A DNA stretch of 64,000 nucleotides, taken from the IMG/VR virus record IMGVR_UViG_3300020156_000025, positions 1 to 64,000 of that record; one strand, 5' to 3'. This DNA comes from a virus. The position numbers and the translations under genes are program-made. Positions 6,960 through 62,324 of this stretch are shown here, one piece after another. Every line of letters starts with the position of its first letter. Position 1 is the stretch's first letter. Below the pieces are notes generated by a model, which saw nothing but the letters and a program-made list of their open reading frames with translations, searched no databases and had not been told where the DNA came from.

Positions 6960-7640
6960 ATGACGAATGATCCCGATGACGAGCTGGAGCTGAACGCGGC
7001 GGGAGAGGGTGTGATGACCGATTACACCGATGACGACGACGATGACGAGGATGAGGACGAGGGGGGCAACGAGGAGGTGCCGGAACCTCAGAACATCCCC
7101 GTGCGCTCGCGCCGCAGGATGGTGGTGCTGGACCCGGTGGTGGCCCAGCAGAAGGTGCTGAACCTGCGCAAGCAGCGCAGGCAGGACAACAAGGAGCGGT
7201 TCCTGAAGCTGCTGGAGGAGAAACACCTCGGGGTGATATGCTATGCCGCGAAGGAAGCCGGGATTTCGGTCGGAACGATCAACCGGTGGATGCGCACGGA
7301 TCAGAACTTTCACGATCGCGTGCGGATGGTGGAGCACCGGCAGGTGGGCTTCGTGGAGCGGCACCTGTTCCGCGCGGTGGCGAACGGGAACGTGCGCGCG
7401 ATGACGTTTTTCCTGAGCACGAAGGGGGCGAAGCACGGATACGTGCAGGGCTTCGAGTTGCGGACGCCGGAACCGTTGCAGGTGGGGGTGGAGGTATCGA
7501 CACCCGATGTGCGGAAGGAGATGAACGACGAGGTGCTGTCGAAGACGCTGGCCAAGTTGATCGGGATGAGTCCCGAGATGGCCGCGGCCCTGCAATCGAC
7601 GCTGGTGGACAAGATCTCGGACCTTTCGCCGGAGGACTAG
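6960..7640 (+). CDS. putative terminase small subunit (HTH)
   Basis: Directly upstream of TerL; HTH AAKEAGISVGTINRW...D..F; GNVRAMTFFL. Confidence 0.7.
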   Translation: MTNDPDDELELNAAGEGVMTDYTDDDDDDEDEDEGGNEEVPEPQNIPVRSRRRMVVLDPVVAQQKVLNLRKQRRQDNKERFLKLLEEKHLGVICYAAKEAGISVGTINRWMRTDQNFHDRVRMVEHRQVGFVERHLFRAVANGNVRAMTFFLSTKGAKHGYVQGFELRTPEPLQVGVEVSTPDVRKEMNDEVLSKTLAKLIGMSPEMAAALQSTLVDKISDLSPED

Positions 7641-7647
7641 GACGGCC

Positions 7648-9114
7648 ATGAATCCGATGCTTACGGACAAGCAATACGCGGAGGTCTATAACCGGATGGT
7701 GCTGGCCGCGCGGCAATGTTTCATCACGTTCCTGTATCTCATGTTCCCGCAGGGGATGCCGGAGACGACATACAAGCTCGCGCCCTTGCACCTGTTCCTC
7801 GCGCAGAAGGTGATGCAGGCGTTCAGGCGTGAGGGGGCGAAGAACCGCGCGGTGTCGGTGCCGCCCCAGCACGGGAAAAGCCGGATGCTGGTGGTGAGGA
7901 CCGTGGCGTGGTTGATCGGGGCAAGGCCGGGAATCTCGATCGCCATTACCGGGTTCTCGCACTCGCTGCTGGTGGATTTCCTCAAGGAGGTGGAGGACCT
8001 GATGCAGACGCCCGCCTACCAGAGGATATTCCCGGGGGTGGTGCCGCGCTATGGACGGAACCGCGACGCGTCGAAATATTTCACGAACGGGGCATCGGTG
8101 GTGGCGAAGGCCGCGGGGTCTAAGCTGACGGGACGCCGGGTGGACTGGCTGATCATCGACGACGCGCACGCGGGACGGGCGGAGGCGGAGTCGGAGGTGC
8201 TGCGGAGCAAGGTGATCCAGTGGTTTTTCGCCGACTGCAAAACCCGCCTTTCGCAGGGGGCGCAGGTGTTCATCATCGGAACGAGATGGCATCCGGCGGA
8301 CCTGATCGGGTTCCTGACTTCGGACGAATACACGAAGCAGTTGAAGGACGCGGGACACGAGGAGGAGTTGTTCGAGGTGACGAACCTGCGCGCGATTTCG
8401 GAGGAGGGGGAGGAGGACCCGCTGGGGCGCGCGCCCGGGGAAGCGTTGTTCCCGGAGGAGCGACCGTTGCGGATGATGCAGGCACTCAAGGCCGCTCTTC
8501 CCGGATACGAGTGGGATTCGCAATACCGGGGGTCGCCGCGCTCGACGATGGGCGGGCAGGTGGACATATCCAAGCTGCGCTATCTGGACGCGGGGGCGGT
8601 GCCGTGGGACTACCTCGACGTGGCGCGGGGATGGGACTTGGCCATCTCGGAAAAGCAGGGGGCGGACTATACGGCGGGGGCGCTGGTGGGGAGGCACCGG
8701 CATACGGGGGACTACTATATCATCGACATGTTCCGGCGGAGGATGGCGTGGTCGAAACTGCGGGCGAACATGGTCAACGTGTCGCTGGAGGACCGCAGGG
8801 TGCGGAACGTGATGCGGGTGGGAATCGAAGGGGTGGCGGGATTCGACGTGGTATTTTCCGAGGTCCGGGACCTGCTGCTGGGAGAGGTGCAGGTGCTCAA
8901 GAAGAATCCGCCGAAGGGCGGGAAGTTGATCCGCGCGCAACCGTGGCTGAACCGGATCGAGGGTGGCAAGGTGTGGGTGGTGAACGGGCCGTGGAAAAAG
9001 GACTTTCTGGAGGAGCTGTTGCAGTTCCCGGAAGGCTCGCACGATGACCAGGTAGACGCGGTGTCGATCGGGTTCGAGATGCTGGAGCATCGCGAGAAAC
9101 TGCTGATCGCATAA
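7648..9114 (+). CDS. terL: terminase large subunit
   Basis: Walker A-like PPQHGKS, LIIDD, IGTRWH; nuclease domain WDLA...DYT and HDDQVDA. Confidence 0.95.
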   Translation: MNPMLTDKQYAEVYNRMVLAARQCFITFLYLMFPQGMPETTYKLAPLHLFLAQKVMQAFRREGAKNRAVSVPPQHGKSRMLVVRTVAWLIGARPGISIAITGFSHSLLVDFLKEVEDLMQTPAYQRIFPGVVPRYGRNRDASKYFTNGASVVAKAAGSKLTGRRVDWLIIDDAHAGRAEAESEVLRSKVIQWFFADCKTRLSQGAQVFIIGTRWHPADLIGFLTSDEYTKQLKDAGHEEELFEVTNLRAISEEGEEDPLGRAPGEALFPEERPLRMMQALKAALPGYEWDSQYRGSPRSTMGGQVDISKLRYLDAGAVPWDYLDVARGWDLAISEKQGADYTAGALVGRHRHTGDYYIIDMFRRRMAWSKLRANMVNVSLEDRRVRNVMRVGIEGVAGFDVVFSEVRDLLLGEVQVLKKNPPKGGKLIRAQPWLNRIEGGKVWVVNGPWKKDFLEELLQFPEGSHDDQVDAVSIGFEMLEHREKLLIA

Positions 9115-9158
9115 TCCCCTTGCTTGTTCGTTTCACCCCATGTTACGACCGGCTTGTC

Positions 9159-14717: not shown

Positions 14718-16621
14718 TCCGTCGCAAGCGCCGCGTGGCGCACCGCTCTCCGGGACAACTCTTCGAGGCAATGCGGAAATCGCACGTGCCGGAGGGGGGG
14801 TGGACGATGCAGGAGTTCCGCTCGCGCAACGGGCTGTCGCTGGTGCGGGACATGGAACGGGTGCAGAAGGTGGCGCGTGCGAAGGGTGCGCGCATGACCG
14901 CCTCGAAGCTGCACGAGCTGATGCGCGGGCAGGTGTTGGGGGTGGTGAAGGAGTTCGAGCGGCTGCTGGCACGATCCTACGGGGGGGACGTGATTTACCG
15001 GAGGGGTATGTCGGTGCCGCACATGAAGGTGGTGGTGACGGTGGAACAACACGAGGGTCTATGGGCTCAGGCCATTGAAGCGGTGATGGCGGAACAGGAC
15101 CGTGCCGTGACCGCCCTTATGCGCCCGGCGATGCAGTCGGTGGCGGACGACGTGCTGGAGAAAACCGGGTTGCTGCTGACCGCGGAAAGGCCGAAGCCCG
15201 GGGCTCGGCGCGTGATGACCCACCGCGTGGACGACATGGCCCGGCAGGTGACGGGGATCAACGATACCACCCGCACGCGCCTTGCGCGCACGATCGCCCG
15301 GGGAATCGACGACGGGAAACACCCGTTCGAGGTGATGGCGCTGGTGCGGGACCGCGTGCCGGAGATCGCGACCAACCGGGTGCCCACGATCGTGCGGACC
15401 GAGATGGGGCGAGTGACCGATGCCGCGACGATCAGGGCGATGAAGGACAGCGAGGTGGTGACGCACGTTTCGGTGATGGGGTGCGAGGCGGTGGAGCCGG
15501 GAATCCCGACGTTCCGGGGGGTGCCGACGTGCAATATCAAAAATGTCCCGATCGAGTTTTCGGGGGACCTGCAATTCCACATAAACCATACGGGGAGTAT
15601 CGTGGCGTCGGGGTTCAAGGAGCAGACGGGACAGACGCCCCAGTTGCCGCTCAGGCCGGGGGGAGGGGTGGGGACATGGGAGGAAAACGGCTCGCCGGTT
15701 CCGGCGGTGATCGAGCAACCGGTGCCGGGTGCCCCGCCCGCGCCCCCGCGACCGCCCGCCCTTGACGATGACATCGCCATTCCCGTGCGCCGCCCGAGGG
15801 GGCACCTCGGTAGAAGAACCGCGCCGCTCACGGAGGAGGACGTGGACGTGGTGCTCGGGGCGATGACAGCCCAAGGAGGGAGGGTCGGGACGACGGGTAT
15901 TCCCGCGCAAGTGAGGCGTCAGCAGGTGCGTGACCTGACGGAAGCATTCGGGGTAACACCCGACGTGGTGATGGAGCGGGTGACGAGGACCGCCCGGACG
16001 ATCGCGGAAGGACTGGGAGCGAACGTCACCAGTTCGATCGTGCGCGTGACGCCTACGAGTTCGGCGTGGAACGTGAACGTGTATATGCGCGATCCCGAAA
16101 CCGGGAACACGTTGATGGAGATGACGCGCAAGGTGGACCCGGTGCTAAAGACCGCGGAGCATTCGTTTTTTCAGCTTAGGCGGCAGATGCAGGGGGGCGG
16201 TGCCGCGAAAGGCATGCTGTCCGACTTTCTGGACCTGTATGATCATGCCGGAATCGAGACGATCGAACTGGACGCGAATATCGACGTGGGCGGATACGCG
16301 TGGGCTCGCTACGGGTTCGTGCCGCGCTCGCAACGCGAGTGGGAGGCGCTGAGAGGTATCCTGCAAGAGCGGTTCGCGGGGATGGCCGACGACGGGTTGC
16401 TGAACACGTGGACGGACGAGCAGATCGACGTGGTTTCGATCGTCCTTGAGGCGGATGCCCCGGAGGCGATCCGTGCCGTGGCCGCGCTGCGCTTTCCGAC
16501 CGATGACGGGAACAATACCCCCGTGGGGAAAAAATTGCTGCTAGGGCGCTTCTGGAAGGGAAAACTTGAGCTTACCCATCCGGACACGTATGCTGTGTTC
16601 GCGTCCTACCTCGGGCGCTGA
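14711..16621 (+). CDS. MuF-family minor head protein with C-terminal GNAT-like extension
   Basis: GINDTTR...IVRTEMGR...HINHTG MuF core; Pro-rich linker; QGGGAAK...ELDANIDVGGYAWARYGF. Confidence 0.75.
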   Translation: MLIRRKRRVAHRSPGQLFEAMRKSHVPEGGWTMQEFRSRNGLSLVRDMERVQKVARAKGARMTASKLHELMRGQVLGVVKEFERLLARSYGGDVIYRRGMSVPHMKVVVTVEQHEGLWAQAIEAVMAEQDRAVTALMRPAMQSVADDVLEKTGLLLTAERPKPGARRVMTHRVDDMARQVTGINDTTRTRLARTIARGIDDGKHPFEVMALVRDRVPEIATNRVPTIVRTEMGRVTDAATIRAMKDSEVVTHVSVMGCEAVEPGIPTFRGVPTCNIKNVPIEFSGDLQFHINHTGSIVASGFKEQTGQTPQLPLRPGGGVGTWEENGSPVPAVIEQPVPGAPPAPPRPPALDDDIAIPVRRPRGHLGRRTAPLTEEDVDVVLGAMTAQGGRVGTTGIPAQVRRQQVRDLTEAFGVTPDVVMERVTRTARTIAEGLGANVTSSIVRVTPTSSAWNVNVYMRDPETGNTLMEMTRKVDPVLKTAEHSFFQLRRQMQGGGAAKGMLSDFLDLYDHAGIETIELDANIDVGGYAWARYGFVPRSQREWEALRGILQERFAGMADDGLLNTWTDEQIDVVSIVLEADAPEAIRAVAALRFPTDDGNNTPVGKKLLLGRFWKGKLELTHPDTYAVFASYLGR

Positions 16622-29234: not shown

Positions 29235-29237
29235 CCT

Positions 29238-39641: not shown

Positions 39642-41291
39642 ATGAGTGCAAAGAGTGATTATACCGATACGATGGACGTGCATAACCTAGCCGGGGTGGG
39701 GGTGTTCCTGACCCGGACAAGGGAACCTAACCGCACGATCGACGCCTTGCGGGAACTGGCGCAGAAGGACGGGCAGCCGTTCGAGAAGTGGGACCTCGCG
39801 ATGGGGTGGCAGAAGTGGGTGATGCGCAATAACGTCATCGTGCACGAGAAGGACGGGTTGACGGAGCCGCTGGCCGCGCTCAAGAGCGTCGGGGGGATGC
39901 CGACGGGGACGCCCAAGACCGGGTGGAGCGTGATGGAGTGCATGCACCCGTTCCTAGGGGGGTATTCGGGACCGCCGAATCCGACGATGGTGCAGGTGCT
40001 TCGGCACTATGCGTTCACTTTCGCGGAAACGGGGCAGCGGCTGGTGATCGTGGCCCCGGAGGGTTTCACGCTGCCGCAGGAACTCCAGCACGATCTGGTG
40101 GTGGTGGATTATGACCTGCCCGACAAGGAGGAGCTTGACGGAATGCTGGACGCCGCCCTTGCGTTCGCGTTCAAGGACCCCCGGCAGAGGGCGAGCGTGT
40201 TCACCGCGGAGCAGCGTGAAACGCTGGTCGGGAACGCGTCGGGAATGACCCGTCTTGAGGCGGAGGGGGCGTTCGCGGAAGCCGTGGTGCGGAACCGGAA
40301 ACATTTGTCCGACCCGATCCCGAACCTGCCCTTCGAGCAGATGAACCGGGTGGTGATGAGCGCCAAGACGCAGGTGGTGAAACGCTCGGAGGTGCTGGAA
40401 CTGATGCCGGTCGGGAACATGGCCGAGGTGGCGGGACTGGAGAATCTCAAGAGCTGGGTGCGCCGCCGCAAAACCTGCTTCACGAAGGCGGCGGAGGCCG
40501 CGGGGGTTGACCGCCCGAGGGGGTGCGCGCTGATCGGACCGCCGGGAACGGGAAAGAGTCTCTCGGCCAAGGCGATCGCGCACGAGCTGGGAATCCAGTT
40601 GATCCGCTTCGACGTGGGGCGGGTGTTCGGTTCGCTGATCGGGCAATCGGAACAGCGGGTGCGCGCCGCGTTGAAACACTTGGAGGCGATGGCCCCGTGC
40701 GTGGCCTTCATCGACGAGGTGGACAAGGCGGGGTTCGATCCGCGCCAAGGAGGCGGGGATTCGGGGGTGGGGAAAAGGGTGATGGGGTCGATCCTGACGT
40801 TCATGCAGGAGACCACGCAGCCGGTGTTCTGGCTGTTCACCGCGAACCGGGTATCCGGGATGCCGCCGGAGATGCTCCGCAAGGGGCGTCTGGACGAGGT
40901 GTTCGCCGTGATGCCGCCCACGTCGGCGGAACGCATGCAGGTGCTGCGCTTGCACCTTGCCAAGCGGAAACAGGACCCCGACAAGATCAAAGGACTGGAA
41001 CGGGTGGTGGCCATCAGCGAAGGCTACGTCCCGGCGGAAATCGAGGCCGCGGTGAAGGAGGCCGTGGTGCGCGTGTTCGCCGACGGGATCGAACTGACGG
41101 CGGACATCCTGTGCGAGGAATTGCAGAACATGAAACCGATGAAGGATGCCTTCCCGGAGGATTTCGCGGAGATGAACGCGTGGGCGGAGAACAACGCCCG
41201 GCACGCGTCGGAGCCGGAAACGGAACTCGCCGTGGTGATGGTGAACCCGACGCAAGGGGGAGTCCGCCGCCGCAGGGGGGGCAACCTGTAG
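39642..41291 (+). CDS. AAA+ ATPase, Ycf46-like
   Basis: Degenerate N-terminal AAA; VAGLENLKSW, GPPGTGKSL, FIDEVDK, TAN, LRKGRLDE. Confidence 0.88.
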   Translation: MSAKSDYTDTMDVHNLAGVGVFLTRTREPNRTIDALRELAQKDGQPFEKWDLAMGWQKWVMRNNVIVHEKDGLTEPLAALKSVGGMPTGTPKTGWSVMECMHPFLGGYSGPPNPTMVQVLRHYAFTFAETGQRLVIVAPEGFTLPQELQHDLVVVDYDLPDKEELDGMLDAALAFAFKDPRQRASVFTAEQRETLVGNASGMTRLEAEGAFAEAVVRNRKHLSDPIPNLPFEQMNRVVMSAKTQVVKRSEVLELMPVGNMAEVAGLENLKSWVRRRKTCFTKAAEAAGVDRPRGCALIGPPGTGKSLSAKAIAHELGIQLIRFDVGRVFGSLIGQSEQRVRAALKHLEAMAPCVAFIDEVDKAGFDPRQGGGDSGVGKRVMGSILTFMQETTQPVFWLFTANRVSGMPPEMLRKGRLDEVFAVMPPTSAERMQVLRLHLAKRKQDPDKIKGLERVVAISEGYVPAEIEAAVKEAVVRVFADGIELTADILCEELQNMKPMKDAFPEDFAEMNAWAENNARHASEPETELAVVMVNPTQGGVRRRRGGNL

Positions 41292-41466: not shown

Positions 41467-42096
41467 ATGCCTGCGATCCAGACCCTCACGGGGGATGTCA
41501 ATCTCCGCGCCGCTTCCGCCAAATGCCACGTGTGGCATGCGTCCGCTCCGGGAACCGCCACGTTCGGATTCGCGGAAGCGTTGCTCTTCGTCAACGCCCG
41601 CAACGGGAGGGGGGCGAGCACGCTGTCGATGCCCGATCCGCAGGGTTCGGTGCTTGGATTCTCCCCGGACATCGGGGGGAAGATGACCGCCGCCGCGTAT
41701 GACGTTTGCGAAGGGGAAATCCTGAAACTCATATCATCCGTGCGTTCGGGGCCGATGGCGGTGCACCAGTGCGCGACCATGTTCCTGCGGGTGCGGGCCA
41801 ACGCCGCGGTGCAGCGGGTGGACATGCCGCTCTTGAACGATCCGTCGTGCAGGTTTACCGGGGGCTTCATCCAAGGACCTTTCGACGTGCTGACGCCCGA
41901 GCAGGTGGACGCGCTGGAAGTCAAGGTGCCCGAGGCGTTCCGCCGCCTGATGATGCCGGGGCCGATGACGGAGCGGCTGTTCCGTGTCACTGTCCTGCAA
42001 GAGGCGAAGGCGGAGGTGGTGGCCGTGACCATGCGCGACGGGAAACAGGTGCAGGTGGAGACCGCCGTGCGCCGCCGCAAGCTCCGTCTCGACTGA
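41467..42096 (+). CDS. hypothetical protein
   Basis: ORF after the promoter; ends AVRRRKLRLD. Confidence 0.65.
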   Translation: MPAIQTLTGDVNLRAASAKCHVWHASAPGTATFGFAEALLFVNARNGRGASTLSMPDPQGSVLGFSPDIGGKMTAAAYDVCEGEILKLISSVRSGPMAVHQCATMFLRVRANAAVQRVDMPLLNDPSCRFTGGFIQGPFDVLTPEQVDALEVKVPEAFRRLMMPGPMTERLFRVTVLQEAKAEVVAVTMRDGKQVQVETAVRRRKLRLD

Positions 42097-48688: not shown

Positions 48689-51580
48689 ATGAAAAGAAGA
48701 GCAAGCAAGCACATCAATAGCGTGGGTAATCTGGACGATCCGGACGTGGTGTTCGTGTGCGATTCGCCGTGGCAACAGGTGTGGGACGAAGGGGGGGTGA
48801 TGACCGGACCGCAAATGGACATCGTGCGGGAGGCGTGCGCGGGGGCCGGGTTGAAGGGGAACCGCTGCGCGTTCATCACCTGTTCCCCGCCGATTCCGCC
48901 GGAGGCGGCGGCGACGGACGCGAGGACGAGGGATTTCCTCGCCTTGCACGCGGAGGAGTTCGCGGAGGAGTTGGGGCGCTTGCTGCCGACGGCGAAGCTG
49001 GTGGTGCCGTTCGGGAAAACCGCGCTGCGGATGGTGGCGGGGAAGTCGGTGGAGATTTCCAAGTGCCGGGGCACCGTGGGGAGGTTCGCGAACGCGGGGG
49101 AGGTGCCGGTGCTGCCGTTGTTCTCGCCCGCGCACGTGTTGCGCAAGCCCGAGGTGAGGGGGGTGTTCGAGTCGGACTTCGGGCAGATACGGGCGTTGCG
49201 GGAATCGGGCTGGGACGGGACGATCTTCGAGCGTTCGATCGCGGGGGCGCACTACGAGTGGGTGACGGACCTGTCGCCCTTGCTCGCGGAGAGGCCGAAG
49301 CGGCTGGCCTTGGACACCGAGACGCTGGGTTACGAGTGGCGGCACGGGAGGCGCATCCTGACGGTGCAATTGACGTGGAAGAAAGGGCACGCGTGGGTGG
49401 TGCCGTTGCAGCGGGGTTACTTCAACAATCCGGAGTTGCGGGGGGAATCGACCCGGCACCTGCCCTTGTTGTCGAAGGTGGACGTGCGGAGACTGGAAGG
49501 GCAGTTGCGGGAGCTGCTGGGGGACCCCCGGACCAAGGTGGTGGGGCACAACCTGAAATACGACCTCCACCACCTGCGCAACCACGGGATCGAGGTGGCG
49601 AACTGGTATGCGGACACGATGCAGTTGGCGTTCCTCGCGGACGAGAACATGCTGTCGAAGTCGTTGGACGATTGCGCCCGGCGCTGGGTGCCGGAGCTGG
49701 GGGGGTATGCGGACGCGTTCAACACCGATCCGGTGCATCAAGGGAAGAGCAGGATGGATCTGGTGCCGCACGACAAGATGATCCGTTACGGGGGCGGGGA
49801 CACGGATGCGTGCTTCCGCCTGTGCGAACGGTTGGTGGAGCTGGGGATGCAGGACGAGCGGCAATGGACCACGTTCCGGCGGGTTCAGATGCCGGGGTTG
49901 AGGACTTTTTTCGAGATGGAACGGAAGGGCATCCGGATCGACCGCGACGCGCTGCGCGAACTCGGGACGGTGCTGGCGAGGCAGGAGCAGGAGATGTATC
50001 AGTCGCTGATGCGGCAGGCCGCGGCCAAGGCTCCCGCCGTGCTGCGCAGGCACGAGGCGGCGGGGTTGTCGTTCACTCGGTCGGCGTTCACGGCGGACCT
50101 GTTGTTCTCGACCGACGGGTTCAAGTTGAAGCCGATCGTGTTCACGGACGGGACCAAGAACCTGCCGGACGAGGAGAAGATACCGAGCACGAGCACGAAA
50201 ACGCACCTGCCCTTTTTCGACCATATCCCGTTCGTGGCGGAGTTGATCGAATACCAGCAGGTGCAGAAGATGCGCAGCACCTACGTGGGATTGCCGGGAG
50301 GGGAGGAATCCGTGCTGCTCAAGCGGACGGCGAAAGGGAAGGTCAACGCGGCGGTGGTGCGGTTGTTCCGGGAGGCGGGAAGGGAGGATGAACTGCCCCC
50401 GGCCAAGACCGTGCCGGTGCGGTCGCGCAACCGGATGATGAAGATAGAGCCGGTGAAGGCGGAGGTGGTGGCCTCGGTGACATCGCCGAAGGGGGGGTTC
50501 CGGATCGACGTGGACACGGCGGGGGATTGCTGGAAGGTCGGGCAACGCGAACCGACCGGGTTCTGGCAGTATCTCGGGGAGGGTCTGGAGGGGGACATCA
50601 TCCATCCTTCGTTCCGTCTGGACAATACGGTGACGGGCCGCTCGTCGTCGCAGAATCCGAACGCGCAGAATTTCCCGAAGCGGGGGAAGCTGGCGAAGGC
50701 ATACCGGAAAATCTTCAAGCCCCGGCCCGGGTTCGTGTTCATCGAGTGCGACCTTTCGCAGGCTGAACTCCGGATCGCGGCGTGGATGGCGAACGATCCG
50801 GTGATGCTCCGCATTTACCGCGAGGGCGGGGACATCCATACGATGATCGCGGCCCGGTCGATGGGACTCACGGACGGGGCGTTCGCGGAACTTCCCGCGG
50901 AGGAACGCAAGGCGGCGCGGCAGAAGGCGAAGGCGGTGAACTTCGGGTTCCTCTACGGGATGTGGTGGAAGAAATTCAAGAATTACGCCAAGACGCAATA
51001 CGGGGTGTCGCTGACGGACCGGGAGTCGGAGAAGATGCGGGAAATGTTCTTCCGCACGTTCCCGGCGCTGGAGGGGTGGCACACGGACATGAAGGCGTTC
51101 GTGAACCGGCACGGGTTCGTGCGTTCGTTGCACGGGGCGTTGCGGCGGTTGCCGGACATCAACTCCAACGACAAGGGGGTGCAGCAGGAGGCGGAGCGGC
51201 AGTCGGTGAACTCGCCCGTGCAACGCTTCGCGTCGGACGTGGGGATCATGGCGATGGCCAGGTTCGGGAGGGATTGCCCGTGGGACGACATGTTCCCGGT
51301 GGCGTTCATCCATGACGCGCTCGTGGTGGAGGCGAGGGAGGAACGCGCGGAGGAGTGCGCGGCGGCAATGAAATATTGCATGGAGACGGTGCCGTTGGAG
51401 GCGTGGTTCGGAATCGTGCCGCCCTTGCCTATCGTGGCGGACGTGAGTATCGGAACCTCGCTGGGGGAGATGGAGGAGAGGCCGGACATCGTGGCCGCGA
51501 TGCCCGCGTGGTTCCGTCCGGAACTCGACCTTGCGCCCCCGGCGGGGAGTGTTTTGCAAACCGTGCAAAATCGCGGGTGA
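48689..51580 (+). CDS. polA: family A DNA polymerase with N-terminal UDG-like domain and 3'-5' exonuclease
   Basis: Exonuclease motifs DTET, HNLKYD, YGGGD; polymerase motifs TGRSSS..PN.QN, DLSQAELR, RQKAKAVNFGFLYG, IHDAL. Confidence 0.95.
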   Translation: MKRRASKHINSVGNLDDPDVVFVCDSPWQQVWDEGGVMTGPQMDIVREACAGAGLKGNRCAFITCSPPIPPEAAATDARTRDFLALHAEEFAEELGRLLPTAKLVVPFGKTALRMVAGKSVEISKCRGTVGRFANAGEVPVLPLFSPAHVLRKPEVRGVFESDFGQIRALRESGWDGTIFERSIAGAHYEWVTDLSPLLAERPKRLALDTETLGYEWRHGRRILTVQLTWKKGHAWVVPLQRGYFNNPELRGESTRHLPLLSKVDVRRLEGQLRELLGDPRTKVVGHNLKYDLHHLRNHGIEVANWYADTMQLAFLADENMLSKSLDDCARRWVPELGGYADAFNTDPVHQGKSRMDLVPHDKMIRYGGGDTDACFRLCERLVELGMQDERQWTTFRRVQMPGLRTFFEMERKGIRIDRDALRELGTVLARQEQEMYQSLMRQAAAKAPAVLRRHEAAGLSFTRSAFTADLLFSTDGFKLKPIVFTDGTKNLPDEEKIPSTSTKTHLPFFDHIPFVAELIEYQQVQKMRSTYVGLPGGEESVLLKRTAKGKVNAAVVRLFREAGREDELPPAKTVPVRSRNRMMKIEPVKAEVVASVTSPKGGFRIDVDTAGDCWKVGQREPTGFWQYLGEGLEGDIIHPSFRLDNTVTGRSSSQNPNAQNFPKRGKLAKAYRKIFKPRPGFVFIECDLSQAELRIAAWMANDPVMLRIYREGGDIHTMIAARSMGLTDGAFAELPAEERKAARQKAKAVNFGFLYGMWWKKFKNYAKTQYGVSLTDRESEKMREMFFRTFPALEGWHTDMKAFVNRHGFVRSLHGALRRLPDINSNDKGVQQEAERQSVNSPVQRFASDVGIMAMARFGRDCPWDDMFPVAFIHDALVVEAREERAEECAAAMKYCMETVPLEAWFGIVPPLPIVADVSIGTSLGEMEERPDIVAAMPAWFRPELDLAPPAGSVLQTVQNRG

Positions 51581-51653: not shown

Positions 51654-52079
51654 ATGAGTGCTCAACCTGTCCGCAAACGCCGTGTCCAAGTCGAAGCTCC
51701 CGCCGTGCCGCAGGAAATCCGGGACAAGGCGGTGAAATTCTACACGGAAAACCTCGCCGCGAACGCCGCCCTTGCCTTGGCCGCGAAGAGTCGCAAGGAG
51801 CTGCTGGCCGCGATGAACGCCGCCGGGCTTTCGAGCGCGCAGATCGAGGGACTGGTGAACAACAAGCTCCAGACCCTCGACGTGACGGTCGCCCCGTCCG
51901 TGCGTCAGGTCGTGTCGGTGCCGGTGCTGTCCAAATTGACCAGCGTGGACGTGCTGGTGGAGGTCTGTTCCGCGTCGCAGGAGTCGGTCCGGAACGCGCT
52001 GGGGGAGGCGGTGTTGCAACAATGCCTCGTCACCGTGGAGGGGGAGGTGAATGTCTCCGTGAAGGTGCCGAAGGCGTGA
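51654..52079 (+). CDS. hypothetical protein
   Basis: ORF after the promoter; begins MSAQPVRKRR. Confidence 0.65.
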   Translation: MSAQPVRKRRVQVEAPAVPQEIRDKAVKFYTENLAANAALALAAKSRKELLAAMNAAGLSSAQIEGLVNNKLQTLDVTVAPSVRQVVSVPVLSKLTSVDVLVEVCSASQESVRNALGEAVLQQCLVTVEGEVNVSVKVPKA

Positions 52080-54605: not shown

Positions 54606-55764
54606 CAGGGACGACGAAGAGTGGGGGCAGACCGGACAAGCCGCCCTTGAACGCATGAACCGTGCCGACGAGGAACATGCCAAGCGGAAGGCCCGCGGTT
54701 TCATGCCGCTGCGCTTCTGGTTGAGCAACACGCCGGAGGCGATCAAGAAGGGGGACAACGAGTGCGAGCTGGTGATCCTCGACGATTGCGTGGTCTCGGA
54801 CAAGCCGGGGAAGGGAGCCATCCTGATCCGGGAGCACAACCTGCAAGGGCCGGACGGGAAGTGGGGGAATCACGAATCGTGCGCCGCCGATTTCGACGAT
54901 TGCCCGATTTGCGCCAAGACGGGCAAGGAGGGATATCACATCCTGTTCCTGACCGTGCTGGTGTTGAAGCCGTGGGAATCGAAGGACAAGAAGAGATCGT
55001 CGGAGTATTCCAAGATGCTGCTGCCGATTTTCCTCAGCCAACGGGACACGTTCCTCGACCTCCAGAAACATGCGCTCAAGAGCAGGGGCACGATGCGGGG
55101 CATGAAAATCCGCTTGCGCCGCGGGAAGGACTCCAAGCGGTCGATCGGGGAACCGGTGCTTATGGAGGACGGGAACATGTTCAAGGTCATGTCGGAGAAG
55201 TGGCTGGAGAAATGGTTCGGCCACGAGGCGGTGATTTCCCGCGACGGCAAGACCGTGCTCAAGGAGGCGAACGAGGACATCCAGCCGTTCGACTACAAGA
55301 AATTGTTCCCGAAGCCCGACGTGGAGGAGTTGCGCGAGCGATTCGGGGGCAAGACCCGGGCAGGCTCGAAGCGTGAGTTCGAGGAGGAGTTCCCGGACCA
55401 GCAGACGAACCGCGTGGGTGGTCGCCGCCGTTTCGACGATGACGACGATGACCCGGAGGACGACATTCCGGGGAACGCCGGGGCTGCGGCCAAGAAGCAG
55501 GGCGCGAAGGGGCGCTTTGCGGACGACGAGGACGAGCCCGAGGAAACGCCTGCCGCCGGGAGGGCCGGTAAGGCGGACGCGGACGAGGGGGACGATGATC
55601 CGCCCGTGCGCTCGCGCCGCCCGTCAACGGCGAGGGAGGAAACCGGGGATGCGCCGGTCCGTTCCCGCCGGACGGGGGGCACAGCCGCTGCATCCGCTGC
55701 GAAAGAACCGATCGGGGACGATGATCCGGACGACCCGGACGCCGACGATGGCTGGAACGACTGA
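54592..55764 (+). CDS. putative single-stranded DNA-binding protein (gp32-like)
   Basis: RFWL...EH...C......CPIC Zn site; very acidic disordered C-terminus ending DDGWND; replication context. Confidence 0.65.
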   Translation: MAKNNRDDEEWGQTGQAALERMNRADEEHAKRKARGFMPLRFWLSNTPEAIKKGDNECELVILDDCVVSDKPGKGAILIREHNLQGPDGKWGNHESCAADFDDCPICAKTGKEGYHILFLTVLVLKPWESKDKKRSSEYSKMLLPIFLSQRDTFLDLQKHALKSRGTMRGMKIRLRRGKDSKRSIGEPVLMEDGNMFKVMSEKWLEKWFGHEAVISRDGKTVLKEANEDIQPFDYKKLFPKPDVEELRERFGGKTRAGSKREFEEEFPDQQTNRVGGRRRFDDDDDDPEDDIPGNAGAAAKKQGAKGRFADDEDEPEETPAAGRAGKADADEGDDDPPVRSRRPSTAREETGDAPVRSRRTGGTAAASAAKEPIGDDDPDDPDADDGWND

Positions 55765-57914: not shown

Positions 57915-58286
57915 ATGAACGAGGATGAACCGAACCAAACCCCGGTGCGCTCGCGCCGTGCGCGTGCCGCGGGGGCAGTGAACCGGCACGAGGGTGCCGC
58001 GACCGTGGAGACGGAATTGAAAACCCCGGACGTGGAGCGCCCGTCCAAGACCCGCGCGCTCGCCCTTCCGGTCGAGGGTCTGCCGCCCGATCCGGCCTAC
58101 GTGACGATAGGCGCGGGGTTCATGGAGAATCTCGGTAACTATGAATCGCTGCGGATTTATGCCTCCGTGACCTTGCCGTGCGACAACACGCGGAGCGCCA
58201 TCGTGAAGGCGAAGGACCGGGCACTCGCCTTGGTCGAGGAGTTCGTGGAAGACGAACGCCGCGCGATGCTCCAGACGAGGAGTTGA
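57915..58286 (+). CDS. conserved phage hypothetical protein
   Basis: VTIGAGF.ENLGNYESLRI.ASVTLPC; upstream of recA. Confidence 0.65.
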   Translation: MNEDEPNQTPVRSRRARAAGAVNRHEGAATVETELKTPDVERPSKTRALALPVEGLPPDPAYVTIGAGFMENLGNYESLRIYASVTLPCDNTRSAIVKAKDRALALVEEFVEDERRAMLQTRS

Positions 58287-58361: not shown

Positions 58362-59657
58362 ATGCCTGCGAAGAAAGCCGCCAAGAAGACCGCGACGAAA
58401 CAAGCCAAGGGGAACGACGCGCCCGTCCGTTCCCGCACCGGAGGGGGAGGGGAGCTAGCCCGACTGAGGACGGAGATCAATGCCAAGAAAGGACCGGACA
58501 CGGTGATGACGGGGAACACCCTGCCGCCCGCGCGACATATCCCGACCGGATCGTTCCTGTTGGACCTTGCCACGATGGGGGGAATTCCGGAGCGGCAGGC
58601 GACGATGCTTTATGGTTACGAATCGTCGGGGAAGACCGCGGTGCTGATGCGGAACATTGCCGAGTTCCAGCGAAAATATCCGAAGCAGGTCGCGGTGCTG
58701 ATCGATGCGGAGCACATGTATGATCCGCTGTGGGCGGCGCAGTTGGGGGTGGACACGTCCCGATTGGAGGTAGCTAGGCCGGAGACCGGGGAGGAGGCGG
58801 TGGACGTGTTCATCGCCATGATGGAGTGTCTGGAGGTGGGGTATATTGCGCTGGATTCCGTGCCTACGTGCGTGCCGCAGGTGGTGGTGGAGAGGTCGGC
58901 GGAAGACGACACGATGGCTTCCCTTGCCCGGTTGATGGGTAAGTTCTGCTCCAAGGTGTTGACGACGTGGGGTAAGGAGCGCAAGCGGGGGCACTATGTC
59001 ACGGTGGCGTATATCAACCAGTTCCGGTCCAAGGTGGGGCTGGTGTTCGGGGACCCGCGAACGCTGCCCGGTGGCAGGCAGATCAATCACTTGCCGACGA
59101 CCAAGATCGAACTCAAGGGGGACGAGGTGATGGGGGAGGACTCGGTGGGAAACAACGTCTCGCTCCACAACAAAATGACATTCAAGGTGACGAAGGCCAA
59201 GAACGGCTGTTCGATCCGCTCCGGGGAGGTGATGATGGTCATGTCGCCCGACAACGAGCACGGGATGCCGACGGGGGCTTACGACGATTACAAGACCGTG
59301 TTGGTGTATGCGCAACGCTTCGGGCTGTTGACGGGGGCGGGGGCGAACTACCGGTTGGACCTGCTGGGATATGCCAAGATGAAGCTGGGGGACATCGAGC
59401 GCGCGCTGCGGCGCGACCAAGGGAAATTCGACCGGCTCAAGGCGTGCATGATCGTCATGCAACGCGTGTCCAAAAACCTGCCGCCCTTGCCGCCCGACAA
59501 TTTTCTCGTGGGACCGGGAGTGACGGTGCCTGCCGAATTCATTGCCGTCGTGGTGAGGGACCACGAGCGTAAGAAAAACGCCGAATCGCCTCCCGCGCCC
59601 GCGGTGGAGGAAGATGACGGCTTCGACGATAGCGACGAAGAGGACGAAGCGGCTTGA
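58362..59657 (+). CDS. recA: RecA-family recombinase
   Basis: IPTGS..LD...GGIP, YGYESSGKT, IDAEH, LDSV, ARLM, INQFR.KVG..FG.P..PGG. Confidence 0.93.
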   Translation: MPAKKAAKKTATKQAKGNDAPVRSRTGGGGELARLRTEINAKKGPDTVMTGNTLPPARHIPTGSFLLDLATMGGIPERQATMLYGYESSGKTAVLMRNIAEFQRKYPKQVAVLIDAEHMYDPLWAAQLGVDTSRLEVARPETGEEAVDVFIAMMECLEVGYIALDSVPTCVPQVVVERSAEDDTMASLARLMGKFCSKVLTTWGKERKRGHYVTVAYINQFRSKVGLVFGDPRTLPGGRQINHLPTTKIELKGDEVMGEDSVGNNVSLHNKMTFKVTKAKNGCSIRSGEVMMVMSPDNEHGMPTGAYDDYKTVLVYAQRFGLLTGAGANYRLDLLGYAKMKLGDIERALRRDQGKFDRLKACMIVMQRVSKNLPPLPPDNFLVGPGVTVPAEFIAVVVRDHERKKNAESPPAPAVEEDDGFDDSDEEDEAA

Positions 59658-59680
59658 ACCCCTGACGGGAGGATACTGCC

Positions 59681-60280
59681 GTGCCTGAGAGAGACATTCC
59701 CTTGTCGCAGCTATTCGAGCTGGTGGAGAAGCCCAAGAAGGGTATTTGCGTGGTCAAATACTGCCGGAAGAAGCGTGCGGTCACGAGCACACTGTGCGCG
59801 ATGCACAAGATGCATGCGTTCCGGATGCGCAACCCGTTGCTGGCGACCTACCTCCGGTTGCGGGACGGGGCCAAGCGCCGGGGGCTGGAGTTCGGATTGA
59901 CGCGCGAACAGTTCCGCGAGCTGTGCGAGATCACCGGGTATCTGGAGGGGAAAGGAACGAGCCCGTTGTCCATGACGCTCGACCGGATCGATGCGCGGAG
60001 GGGATATGTGCCGGGAAACTTGCAGGTGATGACGTTGCGGGACAACGTGGCGAAGGGGAACCGGGAGAGGGAAATCACGTTCCGGGACGGGATACGGATT
60101 CCGTGGACGGAGATTTCGGTGCAGGCCGAACTGTTCAATGCCCGGGAAGTCGAACGGAGGAAAAGCTACGTGGTGTATTTCCGGGGGGAGGAGCGAACCG
60201 CCCCGCCCTTGCCTGACATGCAGGGGAGACATTGGCTGGACGATGATGCCGGTGATGATACAGGGAACGAACCGTTTTGA
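59681..60280 (+). CDS. HNH-like endonuclease
   Basis: AKRRGLEF.LT...C..TG...LDRID..RGY.PGN....N..K. Confidence 0.7.
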   Translation: MPERDIPLSQLFELVEKPKKGICVVKYCRKKRAVTSTLCAMHKMHAFRMRNPLLATYLRLRDGAKRRGLEFGLTREQFRELCEITGYLEGKGTSPLSMTLDRIDARRGYVPGNLQVMTLRDNVAKGNREREITFRDGIRIPWTEISVQAELFNAREVERRKSYVVYFRGEERTAPPLPDMQGRHWLDDDAGDDTGNEPF

Positions 60281-60284
60281 AGCT

Positions 60285-60677
60285 ATGAACGAGGATTACC
60301 GATCGAGACGTGGACTGGCCGTGCCGAAAAGGGAGCGCGGGGTGAAAACGGTGTCGCATGTGCGGGCACCGAAGCAGGAGAGGGCAATGGCCGAGAGGCT
60401 GGGGGGCAGGTGCACGCCCGCCAGCGGATCGCGGGACGTGAAGGGGGACGTGAGGGTGGAGGGGGTGCTGCGTCTGGAATGCAAGAACACGACCAAGCAA
60501 TCGTTCTCGGTGACGCGGGAGATGATCGAGAAGATCGAGCAAGCCGCGATCAACGCCGGGGAATTGCCCGCGGTGCAGATAGACTTCATCGACGCGCGCG
60601 GAAACGTGGAGGCCAGTGTGGCGGTGGTGCCGTGCTGGGTGCTGGACTCGCTGGCACAGGGAAGGGGGGAGGGATGA
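60285..60677 (+). CDS. PD-(D/E)XK nuclease, Hjc-type resolvase-like
   Basis: QERAMA..LGG....ASGS...KGDV......ECKNT. Confidence 0.7.
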   Translation: MNEDYRSRRGLAVPKRERGVKTVSHVRAPKQERAMAERLGGRCTPASGSRDVKGDVRVEGVLRLECKNTTKQSFSVTREMIEKIEQAAINAGELPAVQIDFIDARGNVEASVAVVPCWVLDSLAQGRGEG

Positions 60678-61696
60678 GTCTTGCCCGCCGCGTGTTGCAG
60701 ACGATGCGGGAACCCCGGAATCCCGGGCCGCAGAGCGTTCCGGTGCGCTCGCGCCGTCCTGTTTTGCAAACCGTGCAAACCGAGAGTCCCGCCGCCGGAA
60801 CGGAAGAGGAGGAGGAGGACGAGCCGTGCGTGACGGCGGGATGGGACGTGGAGCAGGCGTTCGTGACCCGCGCCGCCCTTGTGATGGACCGACAGGGGGA
60901 GGAGTCCCGGACGGGTAGCGAGCTAATCCACCTGTCTTCCATGCTGGCGAAAGACTGGTGCCCGAGGAGACACGTGTTGGCGGCGCGACACGGGGAACGC
61001 CAACTCAAGAGGGTGATGGCTCAGGACCGGATCGTGTGGGAGATGGGACGGGCGGCGGAAAGGCACCTGCGGAACCAGTTCATCGCGTCGCACGGGAGGA
61101 CTCGGGTGGTGGGCAGATGGCAATGTGCGTGCGAGGCGCTCAAGGTGGACGGAAGGGGGCTGTCTGCCGCCGCCTTGCGTTCGGGCAGGCATCGCTGCGC
61201 ACGTTGCAACGGGAACCCGATACACTACGGGGAGCTTCCGGTGACGGGGGACAACCTGACGGGTTCCCCGGACTTGCAATTCATTGAGGGTGCCTCGGTG
61301 GGGCGGCACGTCACCGAGATCAAATCGATCAACAAGCGGGAATACGACCTGCTGACGGGTCCGCTGCCGGTGCACGTGCTCCAGTTGTCGGGCTATGTGC
61401 TGATGCTGCGGGCGGCGGGGGTGGTGGTCGATACAGCCCGGGTGGCGTATGTCTGCAAGGACTACGTGCCGCCGGGAACCAGTCCCTACAAGGAGTATGT
61501 GGTGATGCGACCGGGGCTGGAGTTGCCCGCCGCGCAACGGGCCGGGATCGGGCTGATCCAAGAGCAGGCGTCCGCGCTGGGAGCCACGCTCAGGAACTCG
61601 GGGCCTTTGCCGCCCCGGCTGACCAAGTGCACGGCTCCGACCGCGACGGCGGCGAAGGGGTGCAGCCAGTGCGCGCTGTGCTTTTCCTTGGACTGA
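60674..61696 (+). CDS. Cas4-like PD-(D/E)XK exonuclease
   Basis: WCPR, G.PD, EIKS, QLSGY, C-terminal C...C..C...C cluster; internal CxC/CxxC insert. Confidence 0.72.
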   Translation: MSLARRVLQTMREPRNPGPQSVPVRSRRPVLQTVQTESPAAGTEEEEEDEPCVTAGWDVEQAFVTRAALVMDRQGEESRTGSELIHLSSMLAKDWCPRRHVLAARHGERQLKRVMAQDRIVWEMGRAAERHLRNQFIASHGRTRVVGRWQCACEALKVDGRGLSAAALRSGRHRCARCNGNPIHYGELPVTGDNLTGSPDLQFIEGASVGRHVTEIKSINKREYDLLTGPLPVHVLQLSGYVLMLRAAGVVVDTARVAYVCKDYVPPGTSPYKEYVVMRPGLELPAAQRAGIGLIQEQASALGATLRNSGPLPPRLTKCTAPTATAAKGCSQCALCFSLD

Positions 61697-61730
61697 GGCC
61701 GGGGACATGCTAGGGCTACCGGAGCAACCG

Positions 61731-62324
61731 ATGAACAGCCAACCAGTGAGGAGCAGGAGATCGCCGCGGGGGATAAAAACGATGGGCATAGACCCGTCCT
61801 TGAACGGCACCGCGGTGGTGGCGTGGCAGAAGGAGCTTGACCCGGAACTCTACGGACCCGCGGGGGCGGTGCTGGAGATGCATCTGACTCCCAAGCTCAC
61901 GGGCATGGAGAGACTGGTGTGGCTGAGGGAGCAAATGCTCGCCATTATCGAGGGGGCGAGACCGGACGTGATCGTGCTTGAGGACTATGCGCTGGGGATA
62001 AGGGGGAAGGGACTGATCGGGTCGCTGGAGTTCGGCGGGGTGCTCAGGTTGCTGTTGCACGAATGGTCCCGGATGAGGAACGTTCCGGTGTGGAAGATAC
62101 CCCCGGCCAACCTTAAACAATTCACGACGGGGAAAGGGAATGCGGATAAGCCGCAGATGGTGATGGCGTGCTATAAGCGATGGAGCTACGATCCGTTGGG
62201 GTCGAGTCACGATTTGGCCGACGCCTATGCGCTGGCGCGGGTGGGACACGCGCTGGTCGATCCCTCCGTGAAAACAACACAGGTGGAACGCTCCGCGCTG
62301 TCAAAGGCGGTGCGTCTCGTGTAA
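61731..62324 (+). CDS. ruvC: RuvC-like Holliday junction resolvase
   Basis: GIDPSL..T, VLEDY, P.NLK...TGKGNADK, DLADAYALA. Confidence 0.85.
   Translation: MNSQPVRSRRSPRGIKTMGIDPSLNGTAVVAWQKELDPELYGPAGAVLEMHLTPKLTGMERLVWLREQMLAIIEGARPDVIVLEDYALGIRGKGLIGSLEFGGVLRLLLHEWSRMRNVPVWKIPPANLKQFTTGKGNADKPQMVMACYKRWSYDPLGSSHDLADAYALARVGHALVDPSVKTTQVERSALSKAVRLV

What the first reader, a model, noticed from the sequence alone, without database searches (positions are those of the whole stretch)
7098..61763. Shared short peptide tag PVRSR(R) on seven unrelated DNA-handling proteins
Seen: exact PVRSR occurs 8 times in 7 non-homologous proteins. These are TerS (7098, PVRSRRR), PolA (50414, PVRSRNR, inside an insertion), SSB twice (55603, 55654), the ORF before recA (57942), the RecA N-terminal tail (58422), the Cas4-like nuclease N-terminal tail (60740) and the RuvC N-terminal tail (61743). 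Near-matches are PVRRPR in the MuF linker (15782), PVRKRR at the N-terminus of ORF 51654, and VRRR at the C-termini of the AAA ATPase and ORF 41467. The codons differ between copies (gtg cgc tcg cgc / gtc cgt tcc cgc / gtg agg agc agg / gtg cgg tcg cgc) and the motif is always in the coding frame, so selection acts on the peptide rather than the DNA. It always lies outside the catalytic core. Inference: a phage-wide short linear motif that docks replication, recombination and packaging proteins on one hub (analogous to clamp-binding or SSB-tail motifs). It could instead target them to a compartment or mark them for a kinase, protease or unfoldase. I know of no described phage motif like this.
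Basis: partly seen in the sequence, partly recalled or inferred. Interest (0 to 1): 0.85.

Follow-up and report, generated by a model that had tools for sequence, protein, structure and literature searches.

The report
Shared arginine tag on phage proteins
Ten otherwise unrelated proteins of this uncultured 90-kb phage, mostly enzymes that copy, recombine or package DNA, carry the same five-residue peptide (Pro-Val-Arg-Ser-Arg) on a floppy tail, and related phages keep variants of it, so it looks like an undescribed address label whose reader is still unknown.

Summary
Observation confirmed. PVRSR occurs 8 times in the window and 13 times in the whole 89,984-bp phage record. It sits in 10 non-homologous proteins, against 0.04 expected; no shuffle of 2000 gave more than 2. 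Twelve of 13 copies lie within 50 residues of a protein end, in hydrophobic-poor tails. The SSB tail is predicted disordered.

Twelve related phage records keep arginine-cluster variants (PVRxR, RTRR, RKRTRP, RRRR). These include cultured Aeromonas phage HJ05, Pseudomonas phage SM1 and Rhizobium phage L338C. The variants sit at the same sites while the flanks diverge, and RuvC carries the tag at either end. Three unrelated control phages show no enrichment. So this is a real, selected, position-independent linear motif.

My best guess (0.4) is a tether to phage DNA coated by the gp32-like SSB. The main rival (0.25) is the clade's Cdc48-like AAA+ module, whose family C-tail carries the same signature.

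Caveat: the Arg codon CGC is over-used in the tags (19 of 26).

Earlier AI notes of this scan report similar tags in six other phage genomes. My paper searches found no description.

The parts
7098..7112 (+). PVRSR (then RRMVVLD) at residue 47 of the small terminase-like protein (gene 6960-7640). It follows a 46-residue acidic N-tail.
   Evidence: phrog_4044 matches residues 66-122; orthologues carry PRRRRLIINE / FRDRRKIKG at this place
50414..50428 (+). PVRSR (then NRMMKIE) at residue 586 of DNA polymerase A (gene 48659-51580). It lies in a segment absent from the G003 orthologue.
   Evidence: (exonuclease domain 214-393, polymerase domain 647-934)
55603..55617 (+). First PVRSR(R) in the C-terminal tail (residue 338) of the gp32-like single-stranded-DNA-binding protein (gene 54592-55764)
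   Evidence: tail residues 256-390 pLDDT 31-44; core is gp32-like, Z 8.6-8.7
55654..55668 (+). Second PVRSR(R) in the same tail (residue 355), 31 residues from the acidic, Trp-containing C-terminus
57942..57956 (+). PVRSR(R) at residue 10 of a 123-aa protein of unknown function (gene 57915-58286)
   Evidence: orthologues begin with TRPRKR, TRVRQRR, NRRR, RQRQR
58422..58436 (+). PVRSR(T) at residue 21 of the RecA/UvsX-like recombinase (gene 58362-59657), N-terminal tail
   Evidence: RecA domain 38-293; aligned with EPVRRRS in G002; EVRSRSRP in phage L338C RecA
60740..60754 (+). PVRSR(R) at residue 23 of the Cas4-like exonuclease (gene 60674-61696), N-terminal tail
   Evidence: phrog_2506 residues 73-338
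61743..61757 (+). PVRSR(R) at residue 5 of the RuvC-like resolvase, if translation starts at ATG 61731 (gene 61731-62324). Codons are CCA GTG AGG AGC AGG.
   Evidence: orthologues in HJ05, G003 and G006 carry the tag at the C-terminus instead
51666..51683 (+). Near-match PVRKRR at residue 5 of ORF 51654-52079. Translation of this N-terminus is uncertain.
   Evidence: (orthologues: TPVRTRTRK, APTRTRKK)
15782..15799 (+). Near-match PVRRPR in a Pro-rich linker of the MuF-like head protein (gene 14711-16621)
41262..41276 (+). VRRRR, 4 residues from the C-terminus of the Cdc48/VAT-like AAA+ ATPase (gene 39642-41291)
   Evidence: (7 of 8 aligned orthologues have the cluster here)
42067..42093 (+). 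VRRRKLRLD at the C-terminus of the 209-aa protein that follows the AAA+ gene (gene 41467-42096). This is an arginine cluster plus a hydrophobic-x-hydrophobic-Asp end.
   Evidence: (orthologues: RKRRRVIE, RKRRGINL)

Best explanation
PVRSR(R) is this phage's version of a clade-wide short linear motif. The consensus is a hydrophobic residue or Pro-Val, then Arg-x-Arg-(Arg).

I read it as an address label. It would hold the phage's DNA-transaction proteins on one nucleoprotein platform, namely the replicating phage DNA coated by the gp32-like single-stranded-DNA-binding protein.

The proposed contact is an exposed arginine cluster on a flexible tail. It would bind either the nucleic-acid backbone or the SSB bound to it. 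Two known systems work this way:
- The N-terminal LAST motif (KRKST) of T4 gp32 docks on the neighbouring DNA-bound gp32.
- Short basic 'sled' peptides keep cargo on DNA.

Shown: the motif is real, lies in disordered tails, is position-independent, is kept across the clade and is absent from control phages.

Inferred: what it binds.
For: Statistics and placement:
- 13 copies against 0.037 expected.
- 12 of 13 lie within 50 residues of an end (P=4e-4).
- Flanks have hydrophobic fraction 0.166 against 0.279+-0.023 at random places.
- The SSB tail is disordered in the model.

Conservation at orthologous sites with diverging flanks:
- The PolA segment has an Arg cluster in 7 of the 9 records that have the segment. 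G006-G009 were judged by residue number.
- The AAA+ C-tail has it in 7 of 8 orthologues.
- RecA N-tail: PVRSRT in G000, PVRRRS in G002, VRSRSR in L338C.

Position independence: RuvC has the tag N-terminal in G000 and SM1, and C-terminal in HJ05, G003 and G006.

Bearers are DNA-contacting proteins: TerS, PolA, SSB, RecA, nuclease and RuvC. In relatives the list adds DnaB, helicase and ParB.

Link to gp32:
- The SSB has a gp32-type fold. RB69 2a1k_A gives Z 8.7, rmsd 4.6, 173 aligned. T4 1gpc gives Z 8.6. The next rows score 5.0 or less.
- In 7 of 11 records it carries the cluster in its N-terminal tail (within about 20 residues of the likely start). That is where gp32 has KRKST (PMC12893549 passages).

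Sled precedent: peptides with three or four basic residues bind and slide on DNA whatever their exact order (PMC4797294 passages).

Controls: 0 of 3 unrelated phages are enriched. In 8 of 13 clade records no shuffle of 300 reached the observed number.
Against: - Pro, Val and Ser are invariant in 13 of 13 copies in this genome. Plain electrostatic DNA binding does not require that. It points to a stereospecific protein reader.
- This phage's own SSB lacks the tag at its N-terminus.
- TerS, the MuF-like protein and the AAA+ ATPase are not known SSB clients.
- Several tags sit next to long acidic tracts.
- By the loose terminal-cluster measure, G000 itself is not significant (69 of 300 shuffles reach it). 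Its case rests on the exact 5-mer.
Confidence: 0.4

Rival explanations
1. The tag is read by the phage's own Cdc48/VAT-like AAA+ machine. This is the conserved five-gene block of AAA+, a 209-aa protein, DUF1257, a 65-aa protein and a 123-aa protein. The machine would remodel, extract or recycle the tagged DNA-bound proteins.
For: - The block is present in 11 of 12 relatives examined. The twelfth, G005, is a 36%-complete fragment.
- AAA+ residues 250-508 are closest to VAT, Cdc48 and p97 (E 5e-57).
- p97 is known to bind arginine-rich linear motifs: VBM EhRRRRLxhh and VIM (PMC5389986 passages).
- The tails AVRRRKLRLD and PVRSRRRMVVLD resemble the VBM.
- Among the 150 best family representatives, 59 carry an Arg cluster in the last 45 residues. 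The density is 1.32 per 100 aa in tails against 0.11 in bodies.
- 5 of the 150 carry PVRxR in the tail and none in the body. One ends EPVRSRRRLG.
Against: - The AAA+ N-terminal 245 residues fold as a second, degenerate AAA-like domain (pLDDT 87.8). Foldseek hits are NorQ, RuvBL, FtsH and spastin, E 4e-7 to 6e-5. This is not a p97-type N domain.
- The ATPase and its neighbour are themselves tagged, like clients.
- The gp32-like SSB co-occurs with the AAA+ in the same cultured phages, so co-occurrence cannot separate the two readers.
- Mycobacteriophage Corndog has a distant homologue (27%) but no terminal-cluster enrichment.
Confidence: 0.25
2. The tag docks on a host factor, such as a chaperone, an unfoldase adaptor site or a polyanion like polyphosphate or RNA. 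Alternatively it targets proteins to a phage-made compartment or condensate.
For: - It is position-independent and sits at termini, like a targeting signal.
- Some relatives' versions (KRTRP, RKRR) look like basic targeting signals.
- Many tags continue with hydrophobic-x-hydrophobic-acidic residues.
Against: - Cultured hosts are ordinary Proteobacteria: Aeromonas, Pseudomonas and Rhizobium.
- The preferred variant differs from phage to phage (S here, T in G001 and G003, R in HJ05 and G008). A conserved host hub would not predict that.
- None of the 38 proteins scanned with Pfam resembles a shell or import protein.
Confidence: 0.12
3. The tag is a site of modification or cleavage, for example for a kinase, an arginine-modifying enzyme or a dibasic-site protease.
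For: - Ser is flanked by arginines.
- R-x-R-R resembles dibasic cleavage sites (recalled, not tested).
Against: - The central Ser is replaced by Arg, Lys, Thr or Ala in relatives.
- Cleavage at tags 3-10 residues from an end would remove almost nothing.
- No kinase or protease family appears among the 38 proteins scanned.
Confidence: 0.05
4. The recurrence is driven by a nucleotide-level element, either a DNA or RNA signal near gene boundaries or a short cassette copied between genes. The peptide would be a by-product.
For: - CGC fills 19 of 26 tag Arg codons against 32% genome-wide (P=1.7e-5). Next-base context does not explain this.
- 5 of 13 copies share the 12-mer GTGCGCTCGCGC.
- Most copies lie near gene starts or ends.
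- The second most recurrent peptide, LQTVQ, does stem from a DNA box.
Against: - All 13 copies are in the gene's reading frame.
- The 12-mer occurs nowhere else on either strand.
- Two copies use AGG, AGA and AGC codons.
- Flanking DNA is unrelated.
- Relatives with 41-62% GC keep the peptide class at the same protein sites.
- Pairwise codon identity is not above expectation (P=0.11).
Confidence: 0.04

Closest known systems
LAST motif of phage T4 gp32, (Lys/Arg)3(Ser/Thr)2: KRKST at residues 3-7 (PMC12893549, abstract and passages read)
   Same: - It is a short basic Ser/Thr-containing peptide on the flexible N-tail of a gp32-type SSB, and it makes a protein contact on DNA.
- The SSB here has the gp32 fold.
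- 7 of 11 clade SSBs carry the arginine cluster in the N-terminal tail.
   Different: - Here the peptide is spread over about ten unrelated proteins.
- It sits at either end or in linkers.
- It is Arg-only with Pro-Val in front.
- It is missing from the N-terminus of this phage's own SSB.
- Binding to the SSB core is untested.
Molecular sleds: adenovirus pVIc (core KRRR) and other short basic peptides (PMC4797294, abstract and passages read)
   Same: Three or four basic residues on a flexible peptide are attached to proteins that work on DNA. The class tolerates sequence variation between genomes.
   Different: Sled activity does not depend on residue order. That does not explain the invariant Pro, Val and Ser in 13 of 13 copies here. 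No DNA binding was measured.
VCP-binding motif (EhRRRRLxhh) and VIM of p97/Cdc48 cofactors (PMC5389986, passages read)
   Same: These are arginine-rich linear motifs shared by unrelated proteins and read by a Cdc48-type AAA+ ATPase. The phage encodes a Cdc48/VAT-like AAA domain, and some tags match the h-RRRR-L-x-h pattern.
   Different: The receptor of VBM and VIM is the p97 N domain. The phage ATPase has a degenerate AAA-like domain in that place.
Clamp-binding and SSB C-terminal-tip motifs of bacterial replisomes; basic loops of the T7 DNA polymerase thumb insertion that bind acidic tails of gp2.5 and gp4 (all recalled, no call)
   Same: The logic is the same: a short peptide on many DNA enzymes, read by one hub. 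The PolA copy sits in an insertion, as in T7.
   Different: The sequences are unrelated. No clamp gene was seen among the proteins scanned. The polarity is reversed: here the clients are basic and several tails are acidic.

Membership tests
gp32 LAST motif | The carrier is a gp32-type SSB | tested here: met
   VIA Z 8.7 (2a1k_A, rmsd 4.6, 173 aligned) and Z 8.6 (1gpc, 174 aligned). The next rows score 5.0 or less. The top five Foldseek rows are all gp32.
gp32 LAST motif | The motif sits at the extreme N-terminus of the SSB | tested here: not met
   The G000 SSB begins MAKNNRDDEE and has no cluster there. Its two copies are in the C-tail. 7 of 11 clade SSBs do carry an N-tail cluster.
gp32 LAST motif | Composition is (Lys/Arg)3(Ser/Thr)2 | tested here: inconclusive
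   PVRSRR has three Arg and one Ser (10 of 13 copies have the third Arg). Relatives have RTRTR and RKRTR.
gp32 LAST motif | It binds the core of the adjacent DNA-bound SSB | not testable with these tools
p97 VBM/VIM | The receptor is a p97-type N domain with an inter-subdomain cleft | tested here: not met
   The whole N-terminal 245 residues are accounted for by an AAA-like alpha/beta-plus-lid fold. pLDDT is 87.8. Foldseek probability is 1.00 to NorQ, RuvBL, FtsH and spastin.
p97 VBM/VIM | Pattern is E-h-R-R-R-R-L-x-h-h | tested here: inconclusive
   AVRRRKLRLD and PVRSRRRMVVLD fit loosely. PVRSRRPA at a C-terminus and PVRSRTGGGG do not.
Molecular sled | A short peptide with three or four basic residues | tested here: met
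   10 of 13 copies read RSRR.
Molecular sled | Activity is indifferent to residue order, so non-basic positions should be free | tested here: not met
   Pro, Val and Ser are invariant in 13 of 13 copies.
Molecular sled | It binds and slides on DNA | not testable with these tools
   This needs a binding or single-molecule assay.
AT-hook | Core is Arg-Gly-Arg-Pro | tested here: not met
   0 of 13 copies have Gly between the arginines. The definition is recalled.
Twin-arginine export signal | N-terminal S-R-R-x-F-L-K followed by a hydrophobic stretch | tested here: not met
   Copies occur at C-termini and in linkers. Flanks have hydrophobic fraction 0.166. The definition is recalled.

The most novel reading that the evidence does not exclude
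The tag is the recognition signal of a phage-encoded Cdc48/VAT-like AAA+ machine with its DUF1257 and small partner proteins. This would be a ubiquitin-free 'tag and extract' system that pulls replication, recombination and packaging proteins off DNA or recycles them. The 13 identical copies in this genome would reflect co-evolution with that single reader.
Probability: 0.2. Interest if true: 0.85.

Novelty: new variant of a known kind. Interest (0 to 1): 0.68.

Why it matters
Short docking peptides organise replisomes in cells. In phages only a few are known, and each is tied to one partner.

Here one peptide class marks most DNA-transaction proteins of a whole clade of 70-110-kb phages. The clade includes cultured phages of Pseudomonas aeruginosa, Aeromonas hydrophila and Rhizobium. 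Its reader can therefore be found with ordinary pull-downs and tag deletions.

Whichever reader emerges would explain how these phages assemble their replication and recombination machinery. It would also give a function to an unstudied, widespread AAA+ gene block. That family has 7,675 representatives at E<=1e-30.

Tried and rejected
**Close relatives for a synonymous-change test.** None were found.
- Megablast of 47000-62000 against phages gave no match.
- A RecA peptide scan of IMG/VR found none.
- A metagenome scan found only relatives of 40% identity or less.

**Host.**
- The genome-contig scan with the SSB alignment stopped for lack of a conserved stretch. I did not try another query there.
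- The host of G000 stays unknown. Only the hosts of cultured relatives are known.

**Co-folding.** AAA+ residues 1-525 with the triple-tagged N-tail of the protein at 69213 returned 'no answer', score 0.00. This counts neither for nor against binding.

**Searches that added nothing.**
- The Atlas search for the 209-aa neighbour gave nothing usable.
- A PDB sequence search with the SSB profile gave 0 hits. Only the fold comparison found gp32.
- The word-index search with ORF 51654 returned only a 115-aa protein that is 99% identical.
- The Cas4-like search found 3 homologues of 35-36% identity, without the tag.

**Readings considered and dropped.**
- I considered a compartment or nuclear-type signal in a compartmentalised host. 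I dropped it once cultured relatives proved to infect Aeromonas, Pseudomonas and Rhizobium.
- AT-hook and Tat-signal readings fail on sequence and position.

**Other tests.**
- The pairwise codon-identity test was not significant (P=0.11). The CGC test was.
- Corndog served as an out-group carrying the AAA+. It has no widespread tags, but its AAA+ is only 27% identical, so the test is weak.

**Paper searches that found no description.** 'PVRSRR' anywhere (0 papers); short linear motif, bacteriophage, replication proteins, docking; DUF1257/DUF2997; Aeromonas phage HJ05 (0 papers); vB_RleS_L338C (listing only); arginine-rich, linear motif, phage-encoded, recruitment, replisome. Supplements were not opened.

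Full report
**What the window is.** The window is the first 64 kb of an 89,984-bp virus record rated 100% complete. Its GC content is 63% and almost all genes lie on the + strand. No cultured phage is close at the DNA level.

**The observation.** All eight PVRSR copies sit at the stated coordinates in the frames of long ORFs. One further match, at 24856 on the - strand, lies in a frame broken by stops. Five more exact copies lie beyond the window in the same record, at 64490, 68529, 69225, 69282 and 69360.

In my gene set of 113 proteins (26,945 residues), PVRSR occurs 13 times in 10 proteins. Composition predicts 0.037. No shuffle of 2000 within-protein shuffles gave more than 2. It is the most over-represented 5-mer.

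The runner-up, LQTVQ, comes from a DNA box (TTTGCA-N5-TGCAAA) that belongs to another finding.

The tagged proteins are not homologous to each other. Their identities hold:
- PolA, RecA, RuvC and the Cas4-like exonuclease match clearly.
- TerS matches only weakly.
- The 'SSB' has no Pfam match, but its modelled core (pLDDT 80-92) has a T4/RB69 gp32-type fold. VIA gives Z 8.7 and 8.6, with 173-174 residues aligned. The next rows score 5.0 or less.

**Where the tag sits.** Every copy lies outside the matched domains.
- Twelve of 13 are within 50 residues of a terminus. Random placement in the same proteins reaches this with P=4e-4.
- The 20-residue flanks are poor in hydrophobic residues: 0.166 against 0.279+-0.023, with 0 of 5000 random draws as low.
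- The SSB tail with its two copies is modelled as disordered, pLDDT 31-44.
- The PolA copy lies in a segment that the G003 orthologue lacks.
- Three N-terminal cases depend on start-codon choice. They are RuvC, the first two copies in the protein at 69213, and the PVRKRR near-match.
- For the near-match ORF, the only database hit is a 115-aa protein, 99% identical over 82% of the query. That may be a shorter public call of this gene.

**Peptide or DNA?** The evidence mostly favours the peptide.
- All copies are in frame.
- The commonest 12-mer (5 of 13 copies) occurs nowhere else on either strand.
- Two copies use AGG, AGA and AGC codons.
- Flanking DNA is unrelated.
- Pairwise codon identity is not above expectation (P=0.11).

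One result points the other way. CGC fills 19 of 26 tag arginine codons against 32% in the genome (binomial P=1.7e-5). Neighbouring-base context does not explain this. Peptide-level selection is therefore clear, but a nucleotide-level history or extra constraint is not excluded.

**Relatives.** Profile scans of IMG/VR found nine related records of 31-92 kb and 41-62% GC. I read them whole. Protein searches of cultured phages added three more: Aeromonas phage HJ05, Rhizobium phage L338C and Pseudomonas phage SM1.

They share the terminase, portal, capsid, PolA, primase, gp32-like SSB, helicase, RecA, nuclease and RuvC genes, at 25-59% identity. They also share a five-gene AAA+ block.

None carries many exact PVRSR copies. 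Each carries its own arginine-cluster variant at the same places:
- G001 has RTRR(R), plus APVRSRRR and APVRKR at C-termini.
- G003 has RKRTRP.
- G006 has PVR[RK]R.
- HJ05 has P-x-RRR.
- G008 has [KR]RRR.
- L338C has EVRSRSRP on RecA and TVRTRNR on the orthologue of ORF 57915.
- SM1 has clusters on the ends of AAA+, PolA, SSB, helicase, RecA, exonuclease, RuvC and ParB.

Conservation at orthologous sites:
- The PolA segment has a cluster in 7 of the 9 records that have the segment. For G006-G009 this was judged by residue number.
- The AAA+ C-tail has it in 7 of 8 orthologues.
- RuvC carries it at the N-terminus in G000 and SM1, but at the C-terminus in HJ05, G003 and G006.

Shuffle tests:
- PVR.R is enriched in G000, G001, G006 and HJ05 (0-1 of 500 shuffles reach it). 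It is weaker in G004 (15 of 500) and not enriched in the other six records.
- For an arginine cluster within 30 residues of an end, no shuffle of 300 reaches the observed count in 8 of 13 clade records. In three more records, 4-12 shuffles reach it.
- Two clade records are not significant by this loose measure: G000 itself and the L338C piece (69 of 300 each).
- None of the three control phages (Bordetella IFTN4, Microcystis JY26, Corndog) is significant.

**Many tags run on.** Several continue as R-R-x-hydrophobic-x-hydrophobic-acidic: RRRMVVLD in TerS, RNRMMKIE in PolA, RRRKLRLD at a C-terminus, and RRKIRLD after PVRSRK in the protein at 68169. The 'second tag' noted by another reader of this genome therefore overlaps this one.

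**Candidate readers.**

(a) DNA or the SSB-DNA filament.
- The bearers are DNA-contacting proteins.
- Short basic peptides bind and slide on DNA whatever their order (PMC4797294).
- T4 gp32 uses an N-terminal KRKST to dock on its DNA-bound neighbour (PMC12893549).
- 7 of 11 clade SSBs carry the cluster in the N-terminal tail.
- Against: Pro, Val and Ser are invariant here, and G000's own SSB N-terminus lacks the tag.

(b) The AAA+ block.
- Its active domain is closest to VAT, Cdc48 and p97.
- p97 reads arginine-rich motifs (PMC5389986).
- Of the 150 best family representatives, 59 have an arginine cluster in the last 45 residues. That is twelve times the density in the protein body.
- Against: the N-terminal 245 residues are a degenerate AAA-like domain, not a p97 N domain. 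The ATPase is itself tagged. The SSB co-occurs with it everywhere, so the association does not discriminate.

(c) A host factor or compartment, a modification or cleavage site, and a nucleotide-level element all score lower. The reasons are given under the rivals.

I put 0.4 on a tether to the phage DNA/SSB nucleoprotein and 0.25 on the AAA+ module. The remainder goes to the other rivals.

Earlier AI notes of this scan describe similar arginine tags in six other phage genomes. I used their leads (LAST motif, VBM) and tested them here. My paper searches found no description.

Noticed in passing
window 42067-42093; also G000 68550-68582 (beyond the window): C-termini ending basic-(I/L)-R-L-D follow directly on the arginine cluster. 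Many AAA+ family members end in a similar L-x-L-D-[SG] after a V-R-x-R-x-R stretch (listing). The two 'tags' of this genome therefore look like halves of one tail signature.
   Followed up: partly
window 39642-40376: The first 245 residues of the AAA+ ATPase model as a second AAA-like domain. Its Walker A place is taken by a conserved T-R-T-R-E-P. The protein would then be a tandem AAA+ with a dead first ring.
   Followed up: partly
window 54592-55764: The 'SSB' has a T4 gp32-type fold with conserved Cys97, Cys104 and Cys107. PHROGs files it under unknown function (phrog_17226).
   Followed up: yes
window 60755-60790 and 51550-51580: The peptide LQTVQ recurs in 6-7 proteins. It is the in-frame reading of the TTTGCA-N5-TGCAAA DNA box. 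One box lies directly after the Cas4-like tag and one at the PolA C-terminus.
   Followed up: no
window 62894-63991: A 365-aa conserved protein has AKKAAKKAAKK repeats. Its orthologues in HJ05 and SM1 end in KPAA-type repeats. This looks like a histone-H1/AlgP-like DNA-binding tail.
   Followed up: no
window 58362-58410 and G000 64076-64120: RecA and the 146-aa protein at 64076 begin with the same Lys-rich peptide, MPAK[KR]-x-AKKTA.
   Followed up: no
window 55740-55764, 46590-46619, 48620-48641, 59610-59657: Several replication proteins end in acidic, aromatic tips: SSB ...DDGWND, the 457-aa protein ...GFGTWD, DnaB ...STDWMV and RecA ...DDGFDDSDEEDEAA. This may be a second, acidic class of tail motif.
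   Followed up: no
window 48659-49200: PolA carries an N-terminal uracil-DNA-glycosylase-like region. Pfam UDG gives E 2.6e-4, which is below the curated cut-off. SM1's PolA is annotated with the same domain.
   Followed up: no
the 13 tag sites, G000: The arginine codon CGC is used in 19 of 26 tag positions against 32% genome-wide. CGG is used once against 36% genome-wide. This is unexplained.
   Followed up: partly
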